Shown in pieces: positions 1,202 to 34,491 of a stretch of 37,657 nt of DNA. The translations under genes were made by a program, and so were the position numbers. The notes below the pieces were generated by a model, which saw nothing but the letters and a program-made list of their open reading frames with translations, had not been told where the DNA came from and searched no databases. The number at the start of each line of letters is the position of its first letter. Position 1 is the stretch's first letter. This DNA comes from a virus (taxonomy: Duplodnaviria; Caudoviricetes). Where the stretch lies: positions 1 to 37,657 of the IMG/VR virus record IMGVR_UViG_3300005077_001151. One strand, given 5' to 3'.

Positions 1202-1891
1202 CTACAAATACAAAGTCCGCGGCTTCTGTCCTGACTGGTTTATATTTGGCACACGCAGACCATCAGCCTGCGGCTCGCAATAATAAATGGTATTCTCATC
1301 GCTCGGCCAAAACAGATTAAGCGCATGATTTGTGATATGCACAATACCAAAGCACATATCCCAGTATGGAGACAACCACTTCTCGCCGAGCAGAGCTTGA
1401 GAGAAGTCCTGGCACATAAAGCTTCTTGTATTAACAAGGTTTGCGCTGTAGGCTCTATATGTCCACAACTCTATCGGAGTTGCTTTTAACCACATCAAGA
1501 AAACGCCTTTTGGTATTCTCCACATTGGATAGGTAGATCCCGAATAACCTGACATTTCCCAGTCACGGTGCAGTGTTTTTGTAACACCGATCGTGGATGC
1601 GGTTGCACCACGATCCAACGTCATGCCAAATTGACTCGCCCACTGAGCGCGCAGACCTTCAACACTAAACAGCTTTGCTCGCCCAGAGTCAATCATTTGT
1701 TCCATCTGTGGAAGACCAACAAACCTATCCGCACTGGCATAATGCTGAGACAGATACAAATTTGCTTCAACTGCTTCAAGCTTTGCCTTCAGACTTAAAT
1801 TTTCACTGGTAAGCTGCGAGCCTTTAGCTGTTAAATTTTTTATCTCATTAATACAAGTGAAGGACTTCTTCATGCAATCATAAAACGACAT
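1202..1891 (-). CDS. Hypothetical protein with C-terminal papain/transglutaminase-like motifs
   Basis: CQDFS...HALN...EPQ pattern; N-terminal coiled coil; RBS GGAGG. Confidence 0.55.
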   Translation of the reverse strand: MSFYDCMKKSFTCINEIKNLTAKGSQLTSENLSLKAKLEAVEANLYLSQHYASADRFVGLPQMEQMIDSGRAKLFSVEGLRAQWASQFGMTLDRGATASTIGVTKTLHRDWEMSGYSGSTYPMWRIPKGVFLMWLKATPIELWTYRAYSANLVNTRSFMCQDFSQALLGEKWLSPYWDMCFGIVHITNHALNLFWPSDENTIYYCEPQADGLRVPNINQSGQKPRTLYL

Positions 1892-11426: not shown

Positions 11427-14400
11427 CTACTTTATTATCGTCGATAATGCCCTTATTTTCTCTGCAAAATTTTTGATGCCATCTGAAAACATCTGTTGGT
11501 TTTCTCTCTGATATAAAACTGAAGCAGGGTGTATGCACCAGCACAGCCAGCAACCATATTCTTCATGCCACTCTGTCGTGCCACTCTTAGACATTATTCC
11601 TGAGTCACGATCTAAGAAAAATTTCATATTAGTATTTCCGATCGCCAATATCAGAAAAGGCTTAAGTGAGATGATCTCTTCTGTAAGCCATTTAGAGCAA
11701 GCCTTTATTTGCTTACTGGTAGGAGTCTTTGTCTCTGATGGCCAGCACTTTACAACATTCGTAACGTGAAATAACTCTCTACCAAGACCGTGTTCTTTTA
11801 ACTCCTTCCAAAGAACCTCACTGCCTGATCTACCAACAAATCCCTGACCACTACTGTCCTCGTCCTTACCAGGAGCCTCTCCTATTATCATAATGTTATA
11901 TAGTCCTCTTGAAGGCAGAACAGGAGCTTTGCATTGTGTTCTTAACTCACAAATACTGCAAGAACCAAGATCTAAATTTTGAAATCTCCTGTGCCGAGCC
12001 AAATTTAAAGCAATGTTCTGTGTTCCAAAATTGGCAGACAGAACCTCCTCACCAAGCCAAGCCCATTTACAATGTAGGCTGCCCGCCCTAGATATATTCC
12101 CTCCATAAGCCAATATGTGCTCTCCCTCACAATGCTCTATAATATCTTTTTTAGCATTGTATATGTCTGACCCAAATACTATCATGCAAAAATCAGTGTC
12201 GTCTTTTATATTGCCATATACCCCTCCCAAGGACTCTTCTGTTGCCGACGCTTTCATCTTGTTTGAGCTAGAAAGTTTATTGACAGCTGCTTTATAACCA
12301 AACCTAAGCTGCGTCATATTGCCGAAATAATAACTACTTATTTTGGTAGGAATGTTCCAATTTATCGAATTTATTTTCTTTATCTCCAAGCTTGTACTTA
12401 AAAGCTCAAGCACCTTTCTATACTTCTTAGTTCTGTCACGACTAAAAGAAAAATTGAAATATTTTGAAAGCTCGTCTGCCTTTTCCTCACTCACAGGTAT
12501 ATCAGAAAAGACGTCCATCTTGCTGATTATCTCTGTGCACTTTGAACTTATTTTTCTGCCAGACTCCGAGTCACAAAACGAGTTCTTATCAGCAGAGAAT
12601 ATAGCAGTCGACATCTGCTCAGATGTTCTCTCTCCGAAGCCTTTGATCTCGCTAAATGAAGCGTACAATACACCGTCTCCTATGACCCATTCATTCGGCT
12701 TACTTATCCCTATCTTTGGTGGTCTAATATCCAAGCCCAACCTAAAGGCTTCCTCGACAAGCTCTTCCTTCTTTGTCTCGCTACCATAAGTCAAATTTGC
12801 CCACATAAACTCAAGTGGATAATGGCACTTTAAATACATACACCAATATGTTATAAGAGAATACTCGCAAGCATGAGACAAATTAAAACCATAAGAGCCA
12901 AAGCTTGCAAGCTCATCCCAAAGCTTCTCGGCAGTCTCTCTATCAAGCGTCTTTCTCTCAACGCAGCCATTAGCAAAAAGCTCTTTAAACTTTAGAAACT
13001 GCTCAACTCCCTGAGATTTGCTTATGACTTTACGAACAGTGTCTGCTGTCTTCCAGCCAAGACCTCCAAGCTCATACATAAATCTCATAACCTGCTCTTG
13101 GTATAAAATTATTCCTAATGTGTCCTTTGTTATCTCTTCAAGATATTTATGTTTGCATACCCACTTCTTCTCTCCTCTCTTCCGCATAATATACTCAGTA
13201 ACCATACCAGATCTAAGTGTGCCAGGACGATGAAGAGAAGTCAAATGAACAAGCTGATTAAAGTCTTCAACTCCCATCTGCTGAGCAAGTCTTCTTAGCC
13301 CAAGAGAGCCTACCTGGAAACAGCCAATTGAGTTTCCTTTGGTAAACTCTTCATAACACGCTTTGTCGTCAAGAGGAATACTGTCAAAATCTATTTGGTC
13401 TCCGCTCCTCTCTGATATTACTTTCTTGGCCGCATTAAGTATTGTCAGAGCATTAAGGCCCAACACATCAAGCTTCATCAGACCAAAATGCTCTATGTCC
13501 GTTTTCTCCCAGTTAATCATAATCTCGCCATCTTTACCTGTCTGAACGCAGCACCGACTTCCATCAAAAAGACTGTCCTTGGATATAACAATTGCTGCTG
13601 CATGTTGGCCCTTCCCGCGCGCCTGTCCTTCAAGTCTCATAGCTATCTCTGCAACCTCGGGATACTTTCTCTTAAACCTTATTCCGTCCTCGAATGTAGA
13701 GAAAGCGTCTTCAATTGTAAAGTCGCTGCGAAAGTCTCCGCCGCTCCTGACCACGATGCTTTTTGCAGCTTTGTCGGCATCTATTATTGGTACATTAAAA
13801 ACCCTTGACACATCTCTAATGGCAGACCTACCCTTCATTTCCTGAATAGTTGAGATTGCTGCAACGTTGTCTCTGCCATAAAGATCTTCAAGATGGCTCC
13901 TTATAAGATGCCTTTTCCTGTCCTCGAAATCCATATCAATATCTGGCAAATCTATTCTGGCAGGACTTATGAACCTAGCAAAAATAAGATTAAACCTTAT
14001 CGGATCTATCTCTGTTATGTTGAGAAGATAACAGACAAGAGATCCGCCAGAACTTCCTCTGCCAGGTCCTACCATTATGTCGTTTTTCTTGCACCAGTTT
14101 ATCAGCTCCCAAACGATAAGAAAATACCTTGAGAAGCCTTGCTTGATTATTATATCAAGCTCCTCTTGCAGCCTCTCAGAATATTTTTCAGGATCATCGA
14201 CCTTGTTTCTTATCTTACGATCATATCCCTCAAAAGATAATCTTCTCAAAGCGTCTTCGTCTTTCTCTCCTGCCAAGCAAGGGACTTCAGGTAGAGCAAC
14301 CTGGACTTCATCAAGAACAAAGTCTCTACACTTTTCAGCTATTTCAATTGATGTGTCCATGGCACACAGGAAGTCCCTGCTGCTGACGCCTATCTCTCTA

Positions 14401-15143
14401 AAAGATAAAGACATCTCTGAAGCAGTTTTTAAATAAAGACTATCAACTTCAAACTTCCACCTCTTTGGGTCGCGCATATTTGTTTTTGACTGTATTGCAA
14501 GCAATACTTCCTGCGCTCTATTGTCAGTTTTAAGCACATAATGGCAATCGTTCGACGCCACAATCTTGATATTCTTTTTTCTGCCGAGATCAAGGCACAA
14601 GTTATTGTGCAATATCTGTGCATCATAATTCAAAGGCATTATCTCAAGATAAAAATCGTCACCAAGACGGTCCTTTATTCTATCTACAAGCCTGCTCGCT
14701 CCCTTCATATTTAAAAATGACGAAGCGCAAGCACTCATAACAACCAGACCTTCAGAGAAATTAAGCAGCTGCGAGATAGAGAACCTTGGCTTGTAATAAA
14801 ATCCGCTTGTACCTGCAACAGATAAAAGCTTCAAGATATTTTTCCAGCCAGCTTTGTTTTTAGCCAAAACTGTTATATGGTATCTCTTCTCTCCTTTAAT
14901 CTTTATGGACGGATCTGGAACCACATATCCTTCAAAACCGAATATGGGTATGATAGAATTATCGTGGCAGGCCTTATTAAATTTGACAACTCCGTCCACG
15001 TTGCCGTGGTTGGTTGTCGCAAGATATTTAAATCCTATCTCCTTTGCTCTAGCTGCATATTGAACAGCCTTGCCCATTCCGTCCAGTAAAGAAAACTCAT
15101 CGTGCACATGAAGGTGGCAAAAAGCTCTACCCATAATTACCAT
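11427..15143 (-). CDS. dnaE: DNA polymerase III alpha (family C) fused to C-terminal family-4 uracil-DNA glycosylase
   Basis: PHP HLHVH..SLLDG/TNHG/NDCHY; GRGSSGGS, PDIDMDF, KLDVLGL, YQEQVM, YGFNLSH; C-terminal CSIC, GEAPG, FVGRSG, NVVKCWP, HPAS. Confidence 0.95.
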   Translation of the reverse strand: MVIMGRAFCHLHVHDEFSLLDGMGKAVQYAARAKEIGFKYLATTNHGNVDGVVKFNKACHDNSIIPIFGFEGYVVPDPSIKIKGEKRYHITVLAKNKAGWKNILKLLSVAGTSGFYYKPRFSISQLLNFSEGLVVMSACASSFLNMKGASRLVDRIKDRLGDDFYLEIMPLNYDAQILHNNLCLDLGRKKNIKIVASNDCHYVLKTDNRAQEVLLAIQSKTNMRDPKRWKFEVDSLYLKTASEMSLSFREIGVSSRDFLCAMDTSIEIAEKCRDFVLDEVQVALPEVPCLAGEKDEDALRRLSFEGYDRKIRNKVDDPEKYSERLQEELDIIIKQGFSRYFLIVWELINWCKKNDIMVGPGRGSSGGSLVCYLLNITEIDPIRFNLIFARFISPARIDLPDIDMDFEDRKRHLIRSHLEDLYGRDNVAAISTIQEMKGRSAIRDVSRVFNVPIIDADKAAKSIVVRSGGDFRSDFTIEDAFSTFEDGIRFKRKYPEVAEIAMRLEGQARGKGQHAAAIVISKDSLFDGSRCCVQTGKDGEIMINWEKTDIEHFGLMKLDVLGLNALTILNAAKKVISERSGDQIDFDSIPLDDKACYEEFTKGNSIGCFQVGSLGLRRLAQQMGVEDFNQLVHLTSLHRPGTLRSGMVTEYIMRKRGEKKWVCKHKYLEEITKDTLGIILYQEQVMRFMYELGGLGWKTADTVRKVISKSQGVEQFLKFKELFANGCVERKTLDRETAEKLWDELASFGSYGFNLSHACEYSLITYWCMYLKCHYPLEFMWANLTYGSETKKEELVEEAFRLGLDIRPPKIGISKPNEWVIGDGVLYASFSEIKGFGERTSEQMSTAIFSADKNSFCDSESGRKISSKCTEIISKMDVFSDIPVSEEKADELSKYFNFSFSRDRTKKYRKVLELLSTSLEIKKINSINWNIPTKISSYYFGNMTQLRFGYKAAVNKLSSSNKMKASATEESLGGVYGNIKDDTDFCMIVFGSDIYNAKKDIIEHCEGEHILAYGGNISRAGSLHCKWAWLGEEVLSANFGTQNIALNLARHRRFQNLDLGSCSICELRTQCKAPVLPSRGLYNIMIIGEAPGKDEDSSGQGFVGRSGSEVLWKELKEHGLGRELFHVTNVVKCWPSETKTPTSKQIKACSKWLTEEIISLKPFLILAIGNTNMKFFLDRDSGIMSKSGTTEWHEEYGCWLCWCIHPASVLYQRENQQMFSDGIKNFAEKIRALSTIIK

Positions 15144-15376
15144 TTCCTTCTAGCGAATTGTTCTCTCATAGCGACCAAATACTGGAGCATATCTGCAGCT
15201 TCCTCGATGGCCTCATCAATCCATTCAAAAGGATTTTTCTTCTGGTCCCAGCTTATGCCCTGACCATATGTAGCTCTTCCCTTCTTCCACCTATCTTTTA
15301 TTACCTTGATCACAGCTTTCTCGGTCTCTGTCTCTACAATATCGTATGGCTCAGTTTTGCGGGAAGATTTTTGCAT
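15137..15376 (-). CDS. Small all-alpha NTP pyrophosphohydrolase-like (MazG-like) protein
   Basis: R..KG..TYG...WIDEAIEEAADMLQYL acidic EExxD helix. Confidence 0.55.
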   Translation of the reverse strand: MQKSSRKTEPYDIVETETEKAVIKVIKDRWKKGRATYGQGISWDQKKNPFEWIDEAIEEAADMLQYLVAMREQFARRKW

Positions 15377-15380
15377 ATGA

Positions 15381-16100
15381 TTATCTCTTCACCCATCGAC
15401 TTATATCCGTATCAATGGCAACAGGAAAATCATACTTGCCGCAAGGAACAGGGCTGATGCACTTGCCTAATCTAAAGCACAGCGGCTTCATAGGCTCAGA
15501 GAGTATAGGACTTATTTTCTCTCTTATCTCGGCTCGCATAAGCCTTGCCACTTCTCTAAACTCACCTTGTGCGTTCTCGCAAAACCGCAGCTCCAGCATG
15601 TGATAAAGAGACCGAAGATTTATCGCCATCGTTATCGTGCTATGTATGTTCAAAGGGAGCAGTCCTCTTGCATCCTCTGTTTTACAGCCAAGTCTTATGA
15701 GCTCTCTATATTTGGACTGAAGATCTTCCATCGTCTCTCTGTATATTTTAAGAGCTGCTGCGTTGTTATTAAGCTCTTCAGAAATTGCAAACCTTTTCTC
15801 ACTTGCGAAGTCTCCTACATCAACTATTCTCAAGCTCTGTATGCTATAAGCTGCGGTCCTTGTCCTGGTTAGCTGCTGCTGAAAAGCTCGGCTTGCGCCT
15901 TCTATAAGCCACACAAGATTGACAAATTCAAAAACGGTCTGATGCGGTTGTTTGATAAGCATGCTAAAAAATGACTCTTTCTCATCGCTACTGAGATTTA
16001 TGTTTTCAATGCTATCAGGAACAACATGGTGCATGTTCATAAATGCCCAGTAAATAACTTCAAGCGGGTTTTTAGTAAAACTTATAAGCTTAACCTTCAT
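15381..16100 (-). CDS. thyX: Flavin-dependent thymidylate synthase (variant RTR motif)
   Basis: HQTVFE, SRAFQQQLTRTR-x7-S-LR, EDARGLLP, NLRSL, R.C..AQ.E.R; start MKVKL with GAGGAG RBS. Confidence 0.88.
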   Translation of the reverse strand: MKVKLISFTKNPLEVIYWAFMNMHHVVPDSIENINLSSDEKESFFSMLIKQPHQTVFEFVNLVWLIEGASRAFQQQLTRTRTAAYSIQSLRIVDVGDFASEKRFAISEELNNNAAALKIYRETMEDLQSKYRELIRLGCKTEDARGLLPLNIHSTITMAINLRSLYHMLELRFCENAQGEFREVARLMRAEIREKISPILSEPMKPLCFRLGKCISPVPCGKYDFPVAIDTDISRWVKR

Positions 16101-17355
16101 GAGCAGGTCTCCTCTCTTTTTCAAGCTTTTCACTTTTCTTAAAGAATGTGTCCACAAGCTCTCCAAATCCTATGTCTAAGTTAATGCCTATTGTCAAGAA
16201 ATATTTGAATATATCAATCCACTCCTCCTTTATCTTCTCTCTTGATATTGGCCTGTCGCTCTTATGTATCTTCCAGTTTATACAATCAAGCAGACTAAAT
16301 ATTTCATCTAGCATTAAAAGTGATAGCTTCTCGGTGTTCTTTTGCACAAGGCATAAGTCCTCGGAAAAATCAAAATAATGAGCAGAGTAAACTTCCTGCA
16401 TAGAGAATATATCATTCATAATAAATCTATCGTCCGATGATCTTCTTATTATGTCTTGTATTAAAATATCTGGATTCCACTCTGCATATCTCCCTAGCAT
16501 CATTATATTTTTAAATCTTTTGTTAATTCTCTTCTTTATTATCCTTGTTCTCTCCAAATATTTGCCTCCGCTGAATATGTCGCTCTTGCCTGTTATCTCG
16601 CAGAAGCATTTTTGGTCTCTCTTGATAACCCTTGAAAACTCGAAGCTTGGCTCAGGAAAATAAACGATCGCGTTCTCATAAGGTATTTTATTTATGCCGA
16701 AGTCGCTTTCTGTTCCCTCGAAGAACGTGCTGCCAAGATATTCTAACTGCTCGTCACCAGAAGCAATATCTGTGTCGGAATAAACCACCTTGCAGAAAAC
16801 ATCATAAGGTATCGTGCTTACGCAATGGTTAAAACTGATTTCTCTCCCAGAGGAAAGAACGACCTTATTATTTTCAGGGCAGATTTTAGAAACAAGCTCC
16901 TCTGAAAAAATTTGCGGCGCAATTATCTTATCAAGTGACAAAAAAAGGCTTTCAAGATCGACATCAAGCGCCTTCAAGCAGCTATTCTTTTCACAGCTCA
17001 AAAATAAACCTTCTCCATAAATCGATCTGCTAAATTTTAAAGCTCTGCCTGAGTACTGATCAACAAGCTTCTTATCTATTATTTTCTGCTTGTCGTCCGA
17101 CGACAGATATTCAGAGCTTATATAATTGTTATTGACTGATACAAGTATATCAAAAGTTTTGTGAGTATAGTCAACTCTGCCACCTAGCAGATTGATGTCA
17201 GAAAAAAATTTTTTTATCCTGTAATTGTCGTGGAAAAGAATAAAAGGCGACAGACAAGTGATAGTACTTAAATTGTCCTTGCCGACTATAAAGTAATCTC
17301 TATTATAAAGAGAAAATATTTTAGCGGATAATCCGTTTCCTAGAACAATGTTCAT
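16090..17355 (-). CDS. Fusion of a flavoprotein-like (Rossmann) oxidoreductase and a dimeric dUTPase-like all-alpha NTP pyrophosphatase
   Basis: N-terminal IVLGNGLSA, VSTIP, LGRYAEW; C-terminal DEIFSLL..INWK.H...IKEEWIDIFKYF...FFKKS. Confidence 0.65.
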   Translation of the reverse strand: MNIVLGNGLSAKIFSLYNRDYFIVGKDNLSTITCLSPFILFHDNYRIKKFFSDINLLGGRVDYTHKTFDILVSVNNNYISSEYLSSDDKQKIIDKKLVDQYSGRALKFSRSIYGEGLFLSCEKNSCLKALDVDLESLFLSLDKIIAPQIFSEELVSKICPENNKVVLSSGREISFNHCVSTIPYDVFCKVVYSDTDIASGDEQLEYLGSTFFEGTESDFGINKIPYENAIVYFPEPSFEFSRVIKRDQKCFCEITGKSDIFSGGKYLERTRIIKKRINKRFKNIMMLGRYAEWNPDILIQDIIRRSSDDRFIMNDIFSMQEVYSAHYFDFSEDLCLVQKNTEKLSLLMLDEIFSLLDCINWKIHKSDRPISREKIKEEWIDIFKYFLTIGINLDIGFGELVDTFFKKSEKLEKERRPAHEG

Positions 17356-17417
17356 GATCAAATGCTCCTCTGTCTGTCAGCCTTTAGAGATAAAAAGTTA
17401 ATGGTTAATTGTCTTGG

Positions 17418-18080
17418 TTAGGCTCTGCTATAGGCGCCATCCTCGCTCTTCTTGATCCAGCCATTTCTCATCCCTGTTGCTATAACCTTTGAAACACGGC
17501 TGGCAGGGTTCGTCAGTTTCTTGCAAGACGACGATATCTTCCTGATAAGCTCCTTTTCAGTTATGCCGTCGCTGTTGACGATTAATGATATTACAGCGTG
17601 TGTGCCGGCACTCTTTCTATATCCAAACTCATCAATCTTCTCTGACTGCTCCTTGGCAGCAGGTTTGGCAGCAGGTTTGGCAACGGCCTTGGCAACGGCC
17701 TTGGCAGCAGGTTTGGCAACGGCCTTGGCAGCAGGTTTGGCAACGGCCTTGGCAGCAGGCTTGGCAACGGCCTTGGCAACGGCCTTGGCAGCAGGTTTGG
17801 CAACGGCCTTGGCAACGGCCTTGGCAGCAGGTTTGGCAACGGCCTTGGCAGCAGGCTTCCAGTCGTCGATCTCCTCTTCCTCTACAGAGAAAGAATTGTA
17901 TACAACTGTAATTACTTCTGCCAAAGAGCCATCTTTCTCTTCAGGAAGTGATTCAACTGCAACCATGAATTGCTCCTTGGCTTCTTCTGCTGTGCAGCTG
18001 CTATCAATCACCAGCGGCTCCTCTCTGAGCATTTGGTCGTTGAATGCCGCAACGGCTTGATTAAATTTTTTTGTTTTCAT
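17418..18080 (-). CDS. Histone H1/AlgP-like Lys-Ala-Pro repeat protein
   Basis: Acidic N-terminus, 17 KPAA/KAVA tetrapeptides, basic C-terminal globular domain; AAAGGAG RBS. Confidence 0.75.
17653..17858. repeat. Coding tandem array of two 12-bp units (ttggcagcaggt / ttggcaacggcc), 17 units
   Basis: Read directly; encodes 8 KPAA and 9 KAVA. Confidence 0.95.
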
Positions 18081-19805: not shown

Positions 19806-21176
19806 TCACTCTTCGTCACTTATTGATATGGTTATATCTTCTGAAGAATTGTGCTCTACAGCATAACGCCTCAAAACAACGCTGTCTTCTGCTGTTTCTA
19901 TTATACTCTCCTTAACCATATAAGCAGGAAGCCTTCGGCTAAACGTTGTCACAGAGCAGAGCCAAGATGGCGTAACCTTATGCCATTCAGAGTGGACATC
20001 CTCTTCTATTGCATTAAAAAAATAATTGCACAAGGACCATAAAGCTCCTCTGCCATCAATGTCAAACATCACACGGTTAAATCTCTTAGAGTTTGCACAG
20101 GCAAAGTCTGTGAGCATTTTGGAAGCCTTCATAAAACATATCTCGTCTGACACAGAAAATCTCTCCGGTCTTACTCTGCCAAGAACCTTATCGACATACA
20201 TATTTTTAATCATGATAGTCAAGTGTTTGTTGCTGTCCTTTTCGGCATCTGCACATTCCTTGCTAAGCTTTGGCTCTTCTTTTAAGTATCTAATGAAAAG
20301 ACTTGAGCAGCCTTTAGGGTTGAAACTGTTTATAACAAACTCTGCTGGGGTCATTTTTGATAGCCGTTTTTTTACAATAGGATTTGTTGGTTCATATTTG
20401 TTGTCCAAAGCTGCAAAAGAAAAGTTACATATGGATCTCTTTATTTCTTCTATGGTGTACTTTCTGCCATCGAAAAGTTTCCCTTGCAGAAGATGTCCAA
20501 ATCTCAAATAAGAATATCTATAGGATTTTGTTTCAGTAGCTGGCAACCTCAGTCCGCAATCTCGCCAGTAAAGAATAAGCTCTTCTACGGCATTGTTTTT
20601 GGCTTGCGGTTTTAACCTTTTGTGATAATTATTATTGGGCTCTGGTAGTAAGCTGGTGGCTCGCGGACGCAGAGGCTGCGCAGCAGCGGCTGTCCTTCTT
20701 CTATGAAGAAATGTAACTCCGTTAGGAGTTATATTTTTCATAGAAGAAGAATATATATTCTTCTTTATTATATCCTTAAAGTTTTCTTTAAGGATAGGAA
20801 GTTGTCGATCCTTAAAGTTTTCTTTAAGGATAGGACGTTTGTTGTCTGTATTTTTAACTATTTTTTTCTGTATGTTTCTTAGTATAAAACTGTTCAGCTT
20901 TTCTCTATGCAGCGTTTTAATAAACCTTCTCCTTGTTCCGCTGTTTACAATATCTATAAGACCGCTCATGCTCAAAGACTTTATTGACTTGCTCACAGTT
21001 TGCACAGATACATTTAAAACATTAGCAAAATACTTGTCAGAAGCAAAGCAGTGCTTGTCGTCGGAGTCAAGAGAGATTATATATCCGTATAAGGAAATGT
21101 CTGTCTTGGAAAGCTCTTGATATTTAGAACACTCATATACTTCGGCAGGGATGACTATGAATTTTTGCTGTTTCAT
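19806..21176 (-). CDS. Replication initiator-like protein with N-terminal winged HTH
   Basis: LYGYIISL...CFASDKYFANVLNVSVQTVSKSIKSL...GLI; internal DNA repeats; upstream of the helicase gene. Confidence 0.7.
   Translation of the reverse strand: MKQQKFIVIPAEVYECSKYQELSKTDISLYGYIISLDSDDKHCFASDKYFANVLNVSVQTVSKSIKSLSMSGLIDIVNSGTRRRFIKTLHREKLNSFILRNIQKKIVKNTDNKRPILKENFKDRQLPILKENFKDIIKKNIYSSSMKNITPNGVTFLHRRRTAAAAQPLRPRATSLLPEPNNNYHKRLKPQAKNNAVEELILYWRDCGLRLPATETKSYRYSYLRFGHLLQGKLFDGRKYTIEEIKRSICNFSFAALDNKYEPTNPIVKKRLSKMTPAEFVINSFNPKGCSSLFIRYLKEEPKLSKECADAEKDSNKHLTIMIKNMYVDKVLGRVRPERFSVSDEICFMKASKMLTDFACANSKRFNRVMFDIDGRGALWSLCNYFFNAIEEDVHSEWHKVTPSWLCSVTTFSRRLPAYMVKESIIETAEDSVVLRRYAVEHNSSEDITISISDEE
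20771..20835. repeat. Two 28-bp direct repeats, each palindromic (ATCCTTAAAG-TTTT-CTTTAAGGAT); candidate origin iterons
   Basis: Copies at 20772-20799 and 20808-20835 are identical (36-bp period), with AT-rich flanks. Confidence 0.8.
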
Positions 21177-25590: not shown

Positions 25591-25635
25591 TAGCAAGCTG
25601 TGCTGGTAGCTTCCTACTGCCAGCACAGCTTGCTA
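25591..25635. repeat. Hairpin-forming repeat, copy 1 (inverted relative to 29150-29192)
   Basis: TAGCAAGCTGTGCTGG...CCAGCACAGCTTGCTA 16-bp arms. Confidence 0.85.
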
Positions 25636-25644
25636 GTTATTGCG

Positions 25645-26877
25645 TTATACCATATCAACTCTTGTACCAAATGGCGGATCGTAAAGCCGGCCTGTTGAAC
25701 TCCAGTTGAGCCAAACCACGGGACACAGTGGATCAAGATCTGGTGACGGAAACGATCCAGCCATATCCGTAAAGTAAATTACCGCTGCCGGATCAATCTG
25801 CTCGGAAGCAATATATTGAAACACTGGCTCAAAGTCTGTGCCGCCTCCACCAACTGGGCGAACGTCAGTGGTCATGTCCAGCTCTTCAACATTTTGAATT
25901 TTTTCGTCACAGTGAATCAGAAGAACTGGTTTGGCAAACTGATACTGCGCAACGAACTCTCGAAGCTTGCCGATGAATGTGCCGAGAAGTTGCCGATTGA
26001 TTGATCCGCTAGTATCAAGAGCAACCACTAGCGGCTTATCGATTTCTTGGCTATACAGACCAGGCATTCCAGCGCACCGCCGATTTTGCCGGCTGTAGCT
26101 GTAGTCGCTGCGCGCAGCCTGCTGAATAGCAGCTGCCAAAATTTCTTCCCACGGAGGGTTTGCCTCCAGCATTTCCTCTGCCATTTGACGGACCTGCCCG
26201 CCCGATTTGTCGCCAATGCCTTGGGCCATGCTCACTGCCTGAGCGAGCATCTGCTTTATTCTGTTTTCTTCCTCGGTGATGTCGCCCTCACTCATCGGCG
26301 AGCCATCTTCATTTGTTGGCTCCTCAACTTGCCCCCAAGTTTGAGGCGTGCGGCCAGGAATGCCGCTGCCTTCGCTATCATCGCTGCTATCATCGCTGCC
26401 TTCGCTATCATCGCTGCTATCATCGCTGCCTTCGCTATCATCGCTGCTATCATCGCTGTCTTTCTGCTTCTCAGCTTCACGTTCTTGCACCAAAGCTACA
26501 TAAATCTCTTCCGCGCTCATGCCGCGAAACTGTTCATCCAGCAGTCCTGGAGGCAGCTCATATCGCTCATTGACCAGCATTTGATTAATGCGATAATCGC
26601 ATGCCATATTCCACAGCACAGGATCTCTTCCACAGATGCGAATATGATCCATAAGGTCAGTGTGCATGCCTTCGTGGAGCAGGACTCCTTCAACTTCATC
26701 AACCGAAAGTTTATCAACAAACTCGCGATTCCATTTAATTACACGACCATTCGTTACCATGGTTGGCTGATTGTTGTCTTCTTTGAGCTCCATACCATAC
26801 ACCGTTGCGGCATGAAACAAAGCATCTTGGCCAAGCTTAATCTTGGCGCATATTAATTTTTCTTCGGCGGTTTTCAT
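25645..26877 (-). CDS. Putative metallopeptidase (DUF2201-like, HExxH) + vWA domain protein
   Basis: LHEGMH, WNMACD..IN, acidic linker, MIDAS ALDTSGS, GGGGTDF, YFTD. Confidence 0.88.
   Translation of the reverse strand: MKTAEEKLICAKIKLGQDALFHAATVYGMELKEDNNQPTMVTNGRVIKWNREFVDKLSVDEVEGVLLHEGMHTDLMDHIRICGRDPVLWNMACDYRINQMLVNERYELPPGLLDEQFRGMSAEEIYVALVQEREAEKQKDSDDSSDDSEGSDDSSDDSEGSDDSSDDSEGSGIPGRTPQTWGQVEEPTNEDGSPMSEGDITEEENRIKQMLAQAVSMAQGIGDKSGGQVRQMAEEMLEANPPWEEILAAAIQQAARSDYSYSRQNRRCAGMPGLYSQEIDKPLVVALDTSGSINRQLLGTFIGKLREFVAQYQFAKPVLLIHCDEKIQNVEELDMTTDVRPVGGGGTDFEPVFQYIASEQIDPAAVIYFTDMAGSFPSPDLDPLCPVVWLNWSSTGRLYDPPFGTRVDMV
26364..26458. repeat. 3 x 30-bp coding tandem repeat (SDDSSDDSEG linker)
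   Basis: cgctgccttcgctatcatcgctgctatcat repeated exactly three times. Confidence 0.9.
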
Positions 26878-29149: not shown

Positions 29150-29192
29150 TAGCAAGCTGCGCTGGCAGTAGGAAGCTACCAGCACAGCTTGC
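29150..29192. repeat. Hairpin-forming repeat, copy 2
   Basis: 42/43 match to the reverse complement of the 25591-25635 element, including its asymmetric centre. Confidence 0.85.
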
Positions 29193-29208: not shown

Positions 29209-29406
29209 TTATTTGGAGAGATTATACTTAACGAACCGCATATGTTCAACGTGCATACGCTGAATATGATCAACTCCCTCTGCTTTGCTAGCAAATAGTC
29301 CTGTGTTGCGATTTTGCGCAACACTGAACCCTTTCCAATTCCCTACCTTAGTTTTCCAAATCTGACCAATGATCTCTTTGCCAATTTTCACTTCATATTT
29401 TTTCAT
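29209..29406 (-). CDS. Small basic hypothetical protein, first ORF after the hammerhead
   Basis: AAAGGGAG RBS; 65 aa. Confidence 0.6.
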   Translation of the reverse strand: MKKYEVKIGKEIIGQIWKTKVGNWKGFSVAQNRNTGLFASKAEGVDHIQRMHVEHMRFVKYNLSK

Positions 29407-29436
29407 CTCTGTCTCCCTTTGCTTTGCCTTGATTAT

Positions 29437-29507
29437 GGACTCATCAGTAGCAGCACCATACTGCCAGACAGCCGATTAACATATAATCAGCTGTTTCGTC
29501 CTATGGC
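29437..29507 (-). ncRNA. Hammerhead ribozyme, type II
   Basis: Minus strand: GGAC-GAAA-CAGCUGAUUA(UAUGU)UAAUCGGCUG-UC^-UGGCAGU(AUGGU)GCUGCUA-CUGAUGA-GUCC. All core nucleotides and three stems are present. Confidence 0.92.
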
Positions 29508-29897
29508 GGTTATCATGCCTACGCTTGCGCTCCCGCCGTGGCACCCAAAATTTTGGTCAGATTGTTTGGGACTTGACCCTAGGATTGCATCTCTGCGATT
29601 CCCCTGAGATCTGCCCACCTTTTAAACTTTGATTGTCCACCGTCGCCTAACTTGGTTCGTGCGCTGCCGCACGCCCTACCCTTTCGGGTACCTATTGCTA
29701 GGTGGTCGCCGTTTGTTCGCTGGGTCTCGGGTTTTTTACCTTCTAAAAAGCCCTGAAAAAATTGCCTTTCGGCTATGAACAACAGATCACTACTTGCAGA
29801 TCCGTGACAAAGCGCCTTGCAGTGGGACGAAACTGACGTCCCCAGCTGCCCTTGCCACTTTCCTGCTTTCGTTTTCTGTTGTTGTTTTTGTGTTCAT
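29508..29897 (-). ncRNA. Candidate structured non-coding leader RNA
   Basis: Several stems capped by GNRA loops (GCC-GAAA-GGC, ACCUA-GCAA-UAGGU, UACCC-GAAA-GGGUA) plus long-range pairings; no convincing ORF. Confidence 0.55.
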
Positions 29898-29903
29898 GAT
29901 CAT

Positions 29904-29960
29904 ATTATCGCTCTTTTTAAAAATAACTAAAGGATTTTTTAATTTTTTTTTAAAAAAAAA
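29904..29960 (-). promoter_or_regulatory. Putative early promoter with A-tract UP-like element
   Basis: GATAAT (-10-like, 29904-29909) with A/T tracts upstream, at the head of the early gene array; -35 is weak. Confidence 0.35.
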
Positions 29961-30168
29961 TATAAGTGCTTGTTTTTACTTAACAAAAAAAAGATAAAAA
30001 ATCGGAAGAATTTTGTAGAGAGAGACAGAATTATTCCAAATTTTTGGTAGCTATGAAAAAAGGAAGGTATTACAGTAGGTTATATTACATCGTTTGCCGA
30101 AAAGTAAAAGAGATGCGATAAGTAGTTGATATAACTTACGAAACAAGAAACATAAAAATACGGAAATA

Positions 30169-30468
30169 TTAAAAAATACCTCCAAAGACCTTGCCTATAA
30201 AACCAGCTACTGCGTCAACAGCGCTTTTCAACACCCCACTCGGCGCTTCTGGTGCTGTGCGGAAGGATTGGACTGCGCGAGTAGAATTATCAAATACAAG
30301 ATCCACCCTTGTCGTGGACATAACCTGCGATAATCTGCCCTGTTCATCATACACAATGCGATATAAGTAGTTATAGGGCGACCGGCACACGGCACTATTG
30401 TGAGCGCAGCCAGCAAACAAGCAACAGCACAAAATTATTAACGACGCTGCAATAACTCTATAAGCCAT
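30169..30468 (-). CDS. Putative lipoprotein (lysis-module associated)
   Basis: Signal sequence with lipobox-like FAGC. Confidence 0.55.
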   Translation of the reverse strand: MAYRVIAASLIILCCCLFAGCAHNSAVCRSPYNYLYRIVYDEQGRLSQVMSTTRVDLVFDNSTRAVQSFRTAPEAPSGVLKSAVDAVAGFIGKVFGGIF

Positions 30469-30599
30469 TTGACCCATCCTTTCACTCTCAGTTTTGTTTT
30501 TATTTTTAGCTCAACGCAATCCGCAGACACGATCTTCTTTTCATATACCTCAGACTCAAACTTAACTGCGATGCCTGCTGCTTTTATTTCGCCATCCAT
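30438..30599 (-). CDS. Small hypothetical protein
   Basis: GGAGG RBS before MDGEIK. Confidence 0.4.
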   Translation of the reverse strand: MDGEIKAAGIAVKFESEVYEKKIVSADCVELKIKTKLRVKGWVKWLIELLQRR

Positions 30600-30681
30600 A
30601 ACGATAACCTCCGCGCATAAAAATGTCCTCTGCCCAAATCGTTGTAAAATGAGCAGAGGACACCGGCCACTAATAGTTTCT

Positions 30682-31889: not shown

Positions 31890-32294
31890 TTAATGGTTCT
31901 TTTCTGTTCGTGCTTGTGACTCTCGAATAGTTGCCAAATCGCGGGTCAGCAGCTTTAATTCCGTATTGATGTTTGCCATTTTGTCGGAATACTCTTGCGA
32001 CACCTTTGATATTCGCTCGGAAGTCTTTTCATATATGGCTTCAATCCTTGACGTTGTCGCAAGCTGTACAGAAATAAGGCCGCTGAACACAGCGCAGATA
32101 ATCGAGATAGTTATTATTAGCACTCTCATACTCACCTTCCCTTCAATACTGGTTTCGATTAATTGGCGACACGAACTGCATTCGTGCCTCATATCTTCCA
32201 CCTGATCTTTAACTTCTAAAATCTGCTTCCCTTGCGAACATATTTGCGCTTGTATTCCTGAACATTTTGTACATGTAAATTCAGACTCCGACAT
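31890..32294 (-). CDS. Single-TM coiled-coil protein (lysis-module associated)
   Basis: Central hydrophobic helix flanked by coiled coils; two CxxC motifs. Confidence 0.6.
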   Translation of the reverse strand: MSESEFTCTKCSGIQAQICSQGKQILEVKDQVEDMRHECSSCRQLIETSIEGKVSMRVLIITISIICAVFSGLISVQLATTSRIEAIYEKTSERISKVSQEYSDKMANINTELKLLTRDLATIRESQARTEKNH

Positions 32295-32835
32295 TTGGCA
32301 TTCCCCGCTTCCTAAGCACCAGCAGAAAAGAATATTCTAAATATCCCAACTCCTCAAATTCGTATATCAGCTCAACGCTCGGAAACTCTGCGTTCAAAAA
32401 GGTTTTCATCCATTTTAATCCCATCTCATCATTGTGATGGTTACAGTTCGGAGACTCTCCCAAAGCTTGACACTTGGCTCGATATTTCTTTTCGTCTGGC
32501 AGGTACAGTATCAGCAGCCCTCCGACTACCAGCACACGCAGCCACTCCTGCAGCAGTGGTCTAGGGTCACTGTAATCTTCCAACAAATGTGAGCTGTAGA
32601 CATAGTCAAGCACGCCATCCTTAAACCAGTACAGGTTTGTGGCTGAGCCGGTTAGCTGCTGCGGAAAGTTGCCGACGTTTGTGTATCTTGTGTTCACGTC
32701 CATGCAAATAACACTCGGCGTGATAGGATCTCCGCCATAGCCAATATCAAGTCCGTTGCATTTGCCTTTCAAGAACGGCAGAACCCTGTCGCGGACCTTC
32801 TCTGTTTCTCCTCCGCTCATGTACATGCGGTTCAT
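32281..32835 (-). CDS. Class I SAM-dependent methyltransferase (type 11-like)
   Basis: GLDIGYGG, DYVYSSHLLED, EWLRVLVVGG. Confidence 0.85.
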   Translation of the reverse strand: MNRMYMSGGETEKVRDRVLPFLKGKCNGLDIGYGGDPITPSVICMDVNTRYTNVGNFPQQLTGSATNLYWFKDGVLDYVYSSHLLEDYSDPRPLLQEWLRVLVVGGLLILYLPDEKKYRAKCQALGESPNCNHHNDEMGLKWMKTFLNAEFPSVELIYEFEELGYLEYSFLLVLRKRGMPNVGV

Positions 32836-33230
32836 TATTTATTCCTTTTCTTTCCAGCAGCATATGTCCACAGCATCATTTGTGGTTTGCCGCGATCTAT
32901 GTCTGCGTGGATAAAAGTATTGGCAACGCCAATGCGCGTGAACCCAACCATATAGAGCGATTCCATTACAACATATCGATGCAGCGATGTCGTAACGCGT
33001 ATATCAACAGCACATCCAATAAGGTGTGCAGAGTCATCCTCGCCGCCAACATTAATATTATGTTCATGACATCGACAGCCTGAGTCAATAATAAATGGAG
33101 TGCGAGCAAGCTCCCGCGCCTCATCAAGCATGAGCACGAGCCGATTTGACGGGCAACAAAACCCGCACCCGCATTTACAGGCGAACTCCTCTGCCTTAAA
33201 ATACTTGCTGTCAATTTGTTCTAGGACCAT
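32835..33230 (-). CDS. Peptidase M15 family endolysin
   Basis: YFKAEEFACKCGCG, SGCRC..HN..VGG, SAHLIGCAVDI, FIHAD. Confidence 0.88.
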   Translation of the reverse strand: MVLEQIDSKYFKAEEFACKCGCGFCCPSNRLVLMLDEARELARTPFIIDSGCRCHEHNINVGGEDDSAHLIGCAVDIRVTTSLHRYVVMESLYMVGFTRIGVANTFIHADIDRGKPQMMLWTYAAGKKRNK

Positions 33231-34491
33231 TCGTGTTGCCTCGCGCGGTTAAAAGCTTCACTGCCTTTTCATACACCTCTTCAAAGTCCAGCTTGTCGTA
33301 GCATTTACAGTGTTCCCAGGGTCGCTCCAGATACGCAACGTCAAACGTATGCAAATGGCAGTGCCTTCCGCCATACTCGCATATGTCGCTTCCGCTATTT
33401 GGCTGCACCCATTCACAGTTTTTGTATGTTCCCATACGCAGCTCAGGATTAAAACCACCATATATTCCAAGTGACGGAATGCCAAGTCCTTGCGCAACAT
33501 GCCCTGTGGAGCTATCGGGATGTATGGCAATGCTGCTCTGGCTGATTGCTGCAACAACCTTGTTGAAGTTACGCGAGCGAGCAGTAAAGTTATGAATGTT
33601 TTTCCGCAGGTCTTCAGGAAAGAATTTCTCTATGTAGTTATCAACCACCTTTGCGGCTGGCATCATGTCGGCCACTACCATATGGTATCCATCGCACAGC
33701 AGCGGGATCAAAATCTCCTGCCACGCTCGCGGCGAGGGTGTGCGGATAAAAGCGCTGGCCCGGAATTGGACATAAATATATTTGCCTGCTTCAACACCCT
33801 GCTCATTCAGATAACGCAAAACATCATCCACGTCGTCTTGCCTCGGCGTAAGCTGTGGCCGCAAATCTTCATCATCGATATCAAGGTTAAACCATTTTGC
33901 AGCAAGCCTATACGCATTAACCTTTTCCGCTTCGAGACAGTGAACAATACAGTCGTCAAACGCCAAATGATATTCCGCATCTTCCAAGTAACGCAGAGAG
34001 CTTGGTATGGTGCAAAACGAATCAAATAGGTCCCAGGTGCGCAAGAACATTTCGCATGACGGGAAAGACAGACACTTGACTTTGCAGGAAGGCCATCGCT
34101 CTTTAATCTCACGGATAATAGGCTGGAAGAAACACAAATCGCCAAACCCTCCTATCATCCACGCCGCAACTGTTTTACCATCCAAAGGCTGACCACGATA
34201 ATGACGCCACCATGTAGAAGGATCTTCGTTTATCATTCGTACAGGTGGAGGCAGTCCGTTGTTGCGAGCAGCAGCCGTGAAGTTTGAAATCATTCCACGC
34301 TTTGCGACAAGCGGGATATGGGTCGGTACATGAATACGCTCTCCGCAATTAACCGAAGTGGTTAAGTGCGTATCTGTACTGAACACAACGAACTCTGGCC
34401 AATGCTCTCGCAACATATGATCAAGGTCTGTATATTTGGGTCGAATTACTTGCATACCAAGTCTCCCATGCGTTAAATTGGCTACTGTCAA
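33211..34491 (-). CDS. Glycosyltransferase family 9 (heptosyltransferase-like)
   Basis: GGFGD...PIIREIK.RWP; DSSTGHVAQGLGIPSLGIYG. Confidence 0.8.
   Translation of the reverse strand: MTVANLTHGRLGMQVIRPKYTDLDHMLREHWPEFVVFSTDTHLTTSVNCGERIHVPTHIPLVAKRGMISNFTAAARNNGLPPPVRMINEDPSTWWRHYRGQPLDGKTVAAWMIGGFGDLCFFQPIIREIKERWPSCKVKCLSFPSCEMFLRTWDLFDSFCTIPSSLRYLEDAEYHLAFDDCIVHCLEAEKVNAYRLAAKWFNLDIDDEDLRPQLTPRQDDVDDVLRYLNEQGVEAGKYIYVQFRASAFIRTPSPRAWQEILIPLLCDGYHMVVADMMPAAKVVDNYIEKFFPEDLRKNIHNFTARSRNFNKVVAAISQSSIAIHPDSSTGHVAQGLGIPSLGIYGGFNPELRMGTYKNCEWVQPNSGSDICEYGGRHCHLHTFDVAYLERPWEHCKCYDKLDFEEVYEKAVKLLTARGNTNGPRTN

What the first reader, a model, noticed from the sequence alone, without database searches (positions are those of the whole stretch)
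29437..29507. Type II hammerhead ribozyme at the head of the early operon
Seen on the coding strand: CUGAUGA (29447-29441), GAAA (29497-29494), GUC triplet (29469-29467), an 11-bp stem III, a 7-bp stem I and GGAC/GUCC stem II. The 5' flank GCCAUA can pair with loop I UAUGGU, a pseudoknot of the kind seen in natural type II hammerheads. Predicted cut is between 29467 and 29466, 60 nt before the first early ORF. This would give the mRNA a 5'-OH hairpin end and release the upstream RNA. Phage hammerheads are known, but their roles largely are not.
Basis: partly seen in the sequence, partly recalled or inferred. Interest (0 to 1): 0.85.

Follow-up and report, generated by a model that had tools for sequence, protein, structure and literature searches.

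The report
Phage hammerhead ending a folded RNA
An uncultured phage has an intact hammerhead ribozyme sequence 60 bases before its first likely early gene, and it is predicted to cut the message free from a roughly 400-base, predicted-folded, apparently non-coding RNA upstream for which no relative was found; the ribozyme is a known kind and the upstream RNA is the open question.

Summary
The hammerhead is real. All core nucleotides and all three core-closing pairs are present at the stated coordinates. It is the only type II match in the window, and 0 of 300 shuffles give one this strong. It is an ordinary phage subtype: about 340 viral stretches share the pattern.

The pseudoknot claim is half right. 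The conserved contact is one A·U1.7 pair (123 of 126 relatives). The 7-bp 5' extension is peculiar to this copy, and the published type II pseudoknot uses the 3' tail instead.

The context is the unusual part. 63 of 65 relatives follow a stop codon within 51 nt. This one follows about 390 nt of GC-rich, predicted-folded RNA (z -4.1, four GNRA hairpins) with no Rfam match and no homologue in any search. Its 5' hairpin tip is complementary to both core strands of the ribozyme (0 of 2000 shuffles, post hoc), but folding energies favour the active ribozyme.

Best reading: one cut makes a 5'-OH hairpin-capped early mRNA and releases an orphan RNA of about 430 nt. Cleavage, transcription and function are untested.

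The parts
29437..29501 (-). Type II hammerhead ribozyme (stem II open; stems III and I closed)
29466..29467 (-). Predicted cleavage site, 3' of C17 (GUC triplet 29469-29467)
   Evidence: sequence plus established hammerhead chemistry; untested
29468..29494 (-). Stem III, 11 bp, 5-nt loop; ends the released 5' product
   Evidence: pair probability 0.98
29448..29466 (-). Stem I (6 family-level pairs) and loop I with U1.7 at 29460; becomes the 5' hairpin of the mRNA product
29441..29447 (-). Catalytic core CUGAUGA
29502..29508 (-). 5' flank able to pair 7 bp with loop I (29460-29454), starting at the conserved A(-1)/U1.7 contact
   Evidence: duplex -7.1 kcal/mol
29434..29438 (-). 3' CCAUA: alternative 5-bp partner of loop I (the published type II geometry; needs stem II cut to 2 bp)
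   Evidence: duplex -3.2 kcal/mol
29505..29897 (-). Upstream GC-rich (50.5%), predicted-folded, probably non-coding RNA, about 390 nt; 5' end not mapped
29778..29883 (-). Domain 1: long irregular hairpin with a GAAA/AGUA internal loop (loop-E-like, motif name recalled)
   Evidence: z -5.92, 0 of 200 shuffles
29825..29841 (-). Tip of domain 1: 17 nt complementary to both core strands of the hammerhead ('anti-core')
29764..29773 (-). GNRA hairpin (GAAA loop)
29677..29703 (-). Two adjacent GNRA hairpins (GCAA and GAAA loops)
29587..29596 (-). GNRA hairpin (GAGA loop) in a stretch with a chance-level likeness to group I intron P4-P6
29413..29418 (-). Shine-Dalgarno-like AGGGAG of the first downstream gene
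29209..29406 (-). First downstream gene, 65 aa, basic, no homologue or family found
29900..30168 (-). AT-rich spacer (24% GC) that likely holds the promoter; only weak sigma-70-like sites (8-9 of 12)

Best explanation
This is an intact type II hammerhead sequence that is predicted to cut one transcript once, at 29467/29466, separating a likely non-coding, predicted-folded RNA of about 430 nt from the message for the first likely early genes. Shown by sequence: the full core, three closed stems, the A(-1)/U1.7 contact, a ribosome-binding site and a called gene 60 nt after the cut, and an upstream region that folds better than chance. Inferred: a promoter in the AT-rich spacer starts transcription near 29900; domain 1 folds first and hides its anti-core tip; the ribozyme folds and cuts during transcription, helped by the 7-bp 5' pairing with loop I; after the cut the 3' CCAUA can take over loop I, which would help the products part. 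The mRNA keeps a 5'-OH under a hairpin, which would resist 5'-end-dependent decay (established knowledge of RNase E and RppH, recalled). The 5' product leaves with a defined 2',3'-cyclic-phosphate end behind stem III, so the ribozyme would serve as a factor-independent 3'-end maker for a free phage RNA, much as theta ribozymes are proposed to do for phage tRNAs.
For: Core and stems. Covariation of stems I and III in 35 copies, 0 of 500 shuffles on cells paired (stem II and the core are fixed by the search pattern and carry no information). A(-1) and U1.7 in 123 of 126 other copies; the U1.7/A Hoogsteen contact is described in passages of PMC11875169. SD plus ORF within 100 nt of the cut in 105 of 126, median 53 nt; here 60. 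Upstream RNA: minus strand z -4.14 against -2.45 for the plus strand; four GNRA hairpins, 0 of 2000 shuffles and the top count among 187 genome windows; GC 50.5% against 24% upstream and 43.5% genome-wide; the only sizeable same-strand ORF in it (67 aa, TTG start) is not in the protein collection and has no Pfam match, while the downstream 65-aa gene was called. The unconstrained MFE of the full transcript contains the active ribozyme fold.
Against: No cleavage, transcription or end-mapping data. No clear promoter, so the 5' end and length of the upstream RNA are guesses. No homologue of the upstream RNA, so no covariation supports its fold; the part 3' of domain 1 folds only weakly (z -2.03, 6 of 200 shuffles). 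By the same loose ORF test used on relatives this copy lies 77 nt behind the 67-aa ORF, so the contrast with relatives depends on that ORF being spurious. Stem II forms with probability of only about 0.5 in the nested-fold ensemble. Rfam score is below the gathering cut-off. Only 3 of 50 related phage records carry such a ribozyme, so it is not a core feature of this phage group.
Confidence: 0.55

Rival explanations
1. The ribozyme serves only the downstream mRNA (a stable 5'-OH hairpin end, or insulation from read-through out of the lysis genes). The upstream stretch is a leader that acts in cis during transcription, for example in antitermination, and is discarded after the cut.
For: Matches the usual role: 105 of 126 relatives sit just before a gene and 63 of 65 just after one; Perreault 2011 proposes processing of phage transcripts into shorter mRNAs (passage). 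All long genes of the fragment lie on the minus strand, and only two weak terminator-like sites precede the spacer, no more than chance. The 3' two-thirds of the upstream RNA fold weakly.
Against: No boxA within 2 mismatches in 29300-30600. Four GNRA hairpins and a 106-nt irregular hairpin are more structure than a plain leader needs.
Confidence: 0.25
2. The upstream RNA and the ribozyme form a switch: the tip of domain 1 can pair with both core strands and lock the hammerhead off, and a protein, RNA or transcription pause decides between locked and cutting.
For: The 17-nt tip pairs with the two core strands at -26.5 kcal/mol; shuffles give -13.9 +/- 2.0, 0 of 2000; the next-best other place among 187 genome windows gives -18.8; 0 of 78 other hammerhead loci reach it upstream (best -20.3). 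After paying to open the tip the locked state is still -3.2 kcal/mol against the ribozyme's secondary structure. Core-occluding 3' tails (AUCAG) occur in 29 of 126 relatives.
Against: The test was chosen after seeing the match. Any 9-nt exact complement between this region and the ribozyme arises in 129 of 2000 shuffles. Eight of the 17 nt follow simply from the tip stem having the same GGAC/GUCC as stem II. The nested full-length fold disfavours the locked state by about 20 kcal/mol, and the 7-bp pseudoknot (-7.1) was not credited to the active state. The loop has another possible partner inside the upstream RNA (29563-29555, -6.2). None of 120 metagenome matches to the 17-mer has a hammerhead pattern on its own strand in the flanks held.
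Confidence: 0.1
3. The hammerhead is a recently arrived, selectively near-neutral element that travels with small accessory genes; its place behind the folded RNA is incidental.
For: Patchy presence: 3 of 50 related records, at different places. Hammerheads cluster near mobile genes (passages of PMC10085705 and PMC3088659).
Against: The 7-bp 5' pairing uses letters (CCGCC) that also close the last hairpin of the upstream RNA (29537-29533/29509-29505), and it is the longest among 127 copies, which suggests local co-adaptation.
Confidence: 0.07
4. The upstream RNA is a decayed or permuted group I intron, and the hammerhead trims it.
For: 29612-29541 shows four short blocks in the order of group I P4-P5-P6 (seen by eye against 121 intron matches).
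Against: A model of P4-P6 built from 34 such introns scores it 7.5 bits, E 2.4, rank 4 of 11 chance-level hits in the window. RF00028 gives no match here. One P4 pair is a mismatch in the intron register and no P7 follows.
Confidence: 0.03

Closest known systems
Type II hammerhead ribozymes of bacteria and phages (Rfam RF02276; Perreault et al. 2011, PMC3088659, passages read)
   Same: Same permutation, full core consensus, closed core-adjacent pairs, phage intergenic position just before a small gene.
   Different: 4-bp stem II with the loop I contact on the 5' side; the published pseudoknot uses the 3' tail and often a 2-bp stem II. Single copy in the 37.7-kb fragment, not a cluster. Follows a folded non-coding stretch, not a gene.
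GGAC/GUCC viral type II hammerheads fetched here (126 distinct copies from 137 of about 340 IMG/VR stretches)
   Same: 6-bp stem I, A(-1)/U1.7 contact, SD and gene about 50-60 nt after the cut.
   Different: 63 of 65 with enough upstream sequence lie within 51 nt of a stop codon; 5 of 126 have 5 bp or more of in-register 5' pairing, none has 7; none of 126 has the 9-nt anti-core complement upstream.
Theta ribozymes beside phage tRNAs (Kienbeck et al. 2024, PMC10879173, abstract read)
   Same: A small self-cleaving RNA proposed to make the 3' end of a phage non-coding RNA without host enzymes.
   Different: Theta ribozymes are HDV-like and cut next to tRNAs; here a hammerhead leaves its own stem III on a large RNA that is not a tRNA.
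Large phage-associated RNAs GOLLD and ROOL (recalled; in Rfam)
   Same: Several hundred nucleotides, many GNRA hairpins, phage context, unknown function.
   Different: No Rfam match to E 10; shorter; one example only, no covariation.

Membership tests
Type II hammerhead ribozyme | Core C3 U4 G5 A6 N7 G8 A9, G12 A13 A14 A15, U16, H17 | tested here: met
   criteria from PMC3088659 methods passage
Type II hammerhead ribozyme | Core-adjacent pairs 10.1-11.1, 1.1-2.1, 15.1-16.1 intact | tested here: met
   G29440-C29498, U29466-A29448, A29494-U29468
Type II hammerhead ribozyme | Stems I and III closed by loops, stem II open | tested here: met
Type II hammerhead ribozyme | [quoted passage not shown] | tested here: met
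   A29502/U29460 in the register kept by 123 of 126 relatives; sequence-level only
Type II hammerhead ribozyme | Loop I pseudoknot with the 3' tail (common, not universal) | tested here: inconclusive
   3' CCAUA can pair 5 bp only if stem II shrinks to 2 bp; the 5' partner is stronger
Type II hammerhead ribozyme | Rfam RF02276 gathering score (37 bits) | tested here: not met
   23.1 bits, E 0.07; a limit of the model's short stem II, not of the catalytic consensus
Type II hammerhead ribozyme | Self-cleavage 3' of H17 giving 2',3'-cyclic phosphate and 5'-OH | not testable with these tools
   needs an in vitro assay
Group I intron (upstream RNA) | P4-P6 domain | tested here: not met
   E 2.4, rank 4 of 11
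Group I intron (upstream RNA) | P7 guanosine site after P6; RF00028 match | tested here: not met
Any Rfam 15 family incl. GOLLD, ROOL, OLE, RNase P (upstream RNA) | Covariance-model match | tested here: not met
   0 matches to E 10 over 29480-29920
tRNA or tmRNA (upstream RNA) | ARAGORN gene call | tested here: not met
   0 genes in the window

The most novel reading that the evidence does not exclude
The 29897-29467 RNA is the first example of an undescribed class of large phage RNA that is released by its own 3' hammerhead at the start of infection, and the tip of its 5' hairpin is a built-in lock that pairs with both core strands of that ribozyme, making a natural, protein- or pause-controlled ribozyme switch that ties RNA release to early gene expression.
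Probability: 0.1. Interest if true: 0.85.

Novelty: new member of a known kind. Interest (0 to 1): 0.42.

Why it matters
The ribozyme alone adds one more member to a large known set. Its biological role in phages is still open (PMC6765202, passage). This locus offers a clean test of two roles at once: making a stable mRNA 5' end, and making the 3' end of a free non-coding RNA. If the upstream RNA is a functional class, the arrangement promoter, large RNA, hammerhead, early genes is a way to find such RNAs and fix one of their ends from sequence alone. If the anti-core pairing is used, it would be a natural long-range ribozyme switch; I found no description of one in the searches run, which cover only open-licence papers.

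Tried and rejected
Homologues of the upstream RNA, none found. blastn in phages (three short chance hits) and plasmids (none). Pattern scans of viral contigs: the 17-mer tip (one hit with no further likeness), the internal-loop pair (30 hits, none folding alike), the P4/P5-like block, the twin GNRA hairpins. Metagenome scan with the tip: 120 of about 130 hits examined, the best extended match lies in a coding gene. nhmmer and a GNRA-density screen of 80 loci around related MoxR ATPases. A single-sequence model of domain 1 over 50 related viral records and 87 loci. These searches rest on guessed motifs or one sequence, so they do not show absence.

The phage has no close relative: nearest MoxR ATPase 47% over full length, direct locus search empty, isolated phages at most 37% in the rows listed.

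Group I intron ancestry: rejected; the intron HMM's best window hits were inside ordinary genes. Sigma-54 boxes and boxA near the RNA: not found. A pattern for hammerheads with this same 5' pairing gave 3 stretches, two of them near-identical core-variant hammerheads with a shorter pairing. Ribosome-site accessibility before and after the cut depended on the window folded and is inconclusive. Sequencing runs: none was listed, so no reads were laid; this says nothing about expression. ESM Atlas for the 65-aa gene gave no hit at 0.9 or more and no family. No supplements were read; the alignments in the Perreault 2011 supplement could bear on how common 5'-side pairing is.

Full report
Setting. 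The window is a whole linear virus record of 37,657 bases, estimated 40% complete. Its long genes lie on the minus strand. Read 5' to 3': a large probable tail protein, a glycosyltransferase, an endolysin, a methyltransferase and small membrane genes ending in a lipoprotein-like gene at 30477-30169; then about 760 nt without a credible gene; then small genes, DUF3150, a MoxR-type ATPase, a DUF2201 protein, and helicase, primase, DnaE-type polymerase and recombination genes. The finding therefore sits at what is probably the late-to-early boundary. 'Early' is an inference from gene content. The phage has no close relative.

The ribozyme is there. It meets the core criteria in the methods of Perreault 2011 (passage). 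It is the only type II match in the window; 10 of 300 shuffles give a minimal match and none a match with stems of 6/4/6 bp or more. Rfam lists it only below threshold, 23.1 bits against 37. A model built from 35 copies, this one included, scores it 58.5 bits and nothing else in the window above 12.3 (partly circular).

It belongs to a common phage subtype. A pattern with the same stem II and core hit about 340 stretches of IMG/VR; 137 were returned, giving 130 distinct cores, of which 127 including ours passed a stem check. In an alignment of 35 of them all six stem I pairs and three stem III pairs change on both sides, and no cell in these stems is unpaired. The core and stem II were fixed by the pattern and prove nothing.

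The tertiary contact. 123 of 126 other copies have A directly before stem II and U at position 1.7; neither was in the pattern. This is the Hoogsteen A/U1.7 contact of fast hammerheads (passages of PMC11875169). But extension is not a family trait: 5 of 126 reach 5 bp, against 2.8 expected with swapped flanks, and the second pair is unpaired in 17 of 34 rows. The published type II pseudoknot uses the 3' tail. This copy also has such a partner, CCAUA at 29438-29434, weaker (-3.2 against -7.1 kcal/mol) and in conflict with the 4-bp stem II. A simple reading, inferred only: the 5' strand helps the cut and the 3' strand replaces it afterwards.

Usual context against this context. 105 of 126 copies have a Shine-Dalgarno site and an ORF within 100 nt of the cut, median 53 nt; here it is 60 nt. 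Of 65 copies with at least 1 kb upstream, 63 lie within 51 nt of the stop of an ORF of 50 codons or more and 53 within 12 nt. So these ribozymes mostly split a polycistronic message between two genes, as proposed in PMC3088659 and PMC6765202 (passages). Here the nearest upstream ORF by the same loose test is a 67-codon TTG frame ending 77 nt away. It has no Pfam match, is absent from the protein collection in which its neighbours were called, shows no ribosome-binding site by eye, and runs through predicted hairpins. I treat it as spurious; that is a judgement.

The upstream RNA. 29897-29510 is 50.5% GC beside a 24% GC spacer. It folds at z -4.14 on the minus strand and -2.45 on the plus strand. 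It has four GNRA-capped hairpins, which 0 of 2000 shuffles reach and which is the top count among 187 genome windows. The support is uneven: domain 1 (29883-29778) is strong, z -5.92; the rest is weak, z -2.03, with competing folds. No Rfam family matches to E 10 and there is no tRNA. Every homologue search failed, so there is no covariation. No convincing promoter was found; the best sigma-70-like sites score 8-9 of 12, one with its -10 box at 29909-29904. A start near 29900 would give a 5' product of about 430 nt.

The anti-core tip. The tip of domain 1 (29841-29825) is complementary to GGACGAAA and to CUGAU..GUCC, the two core strands, as if the ribozyme were read with stems III and I left out. 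The duplex energy, -26.5 kcal/mol, is reached by 0 of 2000 shuffles, by no other place in the genome, and by 0 of 78 other loci upstream. Against this: the test is post hoc; a 9-nt complement to any part of the ribozyme arises in 129 of 2000 shuffles; eight letters follow from a shared GGAC/GUCC stem; the nested full-length fold prefers the active ribozyme by 20 kcal/mol; and a kissing-type estimate of -3.2 for the locked state is smaller than the pseudoknot it would compete with. None of 120 metagenome matches to the 17-mer had a hammerhead pattern on its own strand nearby. I keep it as a testable minority reading.

Group I likeness. A stretch at 29612-29541 resembled intron P4-P6 by recall. 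Real introns were fetched and modelled; the stretch scored at chance level. Rejected.

Mechanism, step by step. Shown: ribozyme anatomy, downstream gene start, non-random upstream fold. From established chemistry (PMC6765202, passage): a cut gives a 2',3'-cyclic phosphate and a 5'-OH. Inferred: transcription from the AT-rich spacer, co-transcriptional cutting, a stabilised mRNA 5' end, and a free upstream RNA with a job of its own. I put activity of the ribozyme at about 0.9 and the whole reading at 0.55.

Comparison and novelty. As a ribozyme it is a new member of a known family. It works like gene-leading phage hammerheads and, for the upstream RNA, like theta ribozymes at tRNA 3' ends (abstract). 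Searches of the open literature for this arrangement found nothing (0 papers; listings with no such report evident from titles and abstract starts; PMC5737381 seen as a listing only; PMC10085705 as passages). Unchecked notes from this scan describe the same arrangement in several other phage genomes and core-occluding tails; they are leads, not support, and none shares sequence with this locus. Verdict: real, mostly ordinary ribozyme in a less ordinary place; interest 0.42.

Noticed in passing
window 29150-29192 and 25593-25635: The same 43-nt near-perfect hairpin (16-18 bp stem) occurs twice, in opposite orientation, each between two genes of the early region. No U-run follows on the coding strand; it may be an RNase III site or a small mobile palindrome. 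The first copy lies just after the 65-aa gene, so ribozyme and hairpin could bracket a one-gene mRNA.
   Followed up: partly
window 29249-29221, minus strand: The best sigma-70-like promoter of the region (TTGAAC-17-TATAAT, 10 of 12) lies at the end of the 65-aa gene, so genes further down may not depend on the ribozyme-cut transcript.
   Followed up: no
L003-L139 (126 viral type II hammerheads): 29 of 126 have AUCAG right after stem II, complementary to the core CUGAU; 21 have GACY within 15 nt, complementary to GAGUC. Many have the upstream stop codon overlapping the A before stem II.
   Followed up: partly
L218 7950-7990, L164 9040-12260, L163 7905-7960, L174 500-530: Hammerheads lie directly before or after the MoxR ATPase gene, or within 1.3 kb of it, in four distantly related phage records.
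   Followed up: partly
window 11427-15143: DnaE-type DNA polymerase with a uracil-DNA-glycosylase-superfamily domain fused at its C-terminus.
   Followed up: no
window 15137-17361 and 32281-34491: Thymidylate-synthase-like gene, a 423-aa gene with a C-terminal nucleotide pyrophosphohydrolase-like part, a glycosyltransferase and a methyltransferase: possible modified-nucleotide or glycosylation pathway.
   Followed up: no
window 17627-17894 and 26364-26462: A 12-nt tandem repeat inside a 220-aa gene and a 30-nt repeat inside the DUF2201 gene.
   Followed up: no
window 20772-20839: Two 32-nt palindromic direct repeats inside the replication-initiator-like gene; possible origin iterons.
   Followed up: no
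window about 1270-1660, minus strand: A 390-nt window folds at z -4.2 (8 shuffles only) inside a 229-aa ORF.
   Followed up: no
L450 695-735 of the matched strand: An unrelated metagenome contig has a perfect 11-bp hairpin with the same UCAGUUU loop as the domain 1 tip, near its end; no further likeness.
   Followed up: partly
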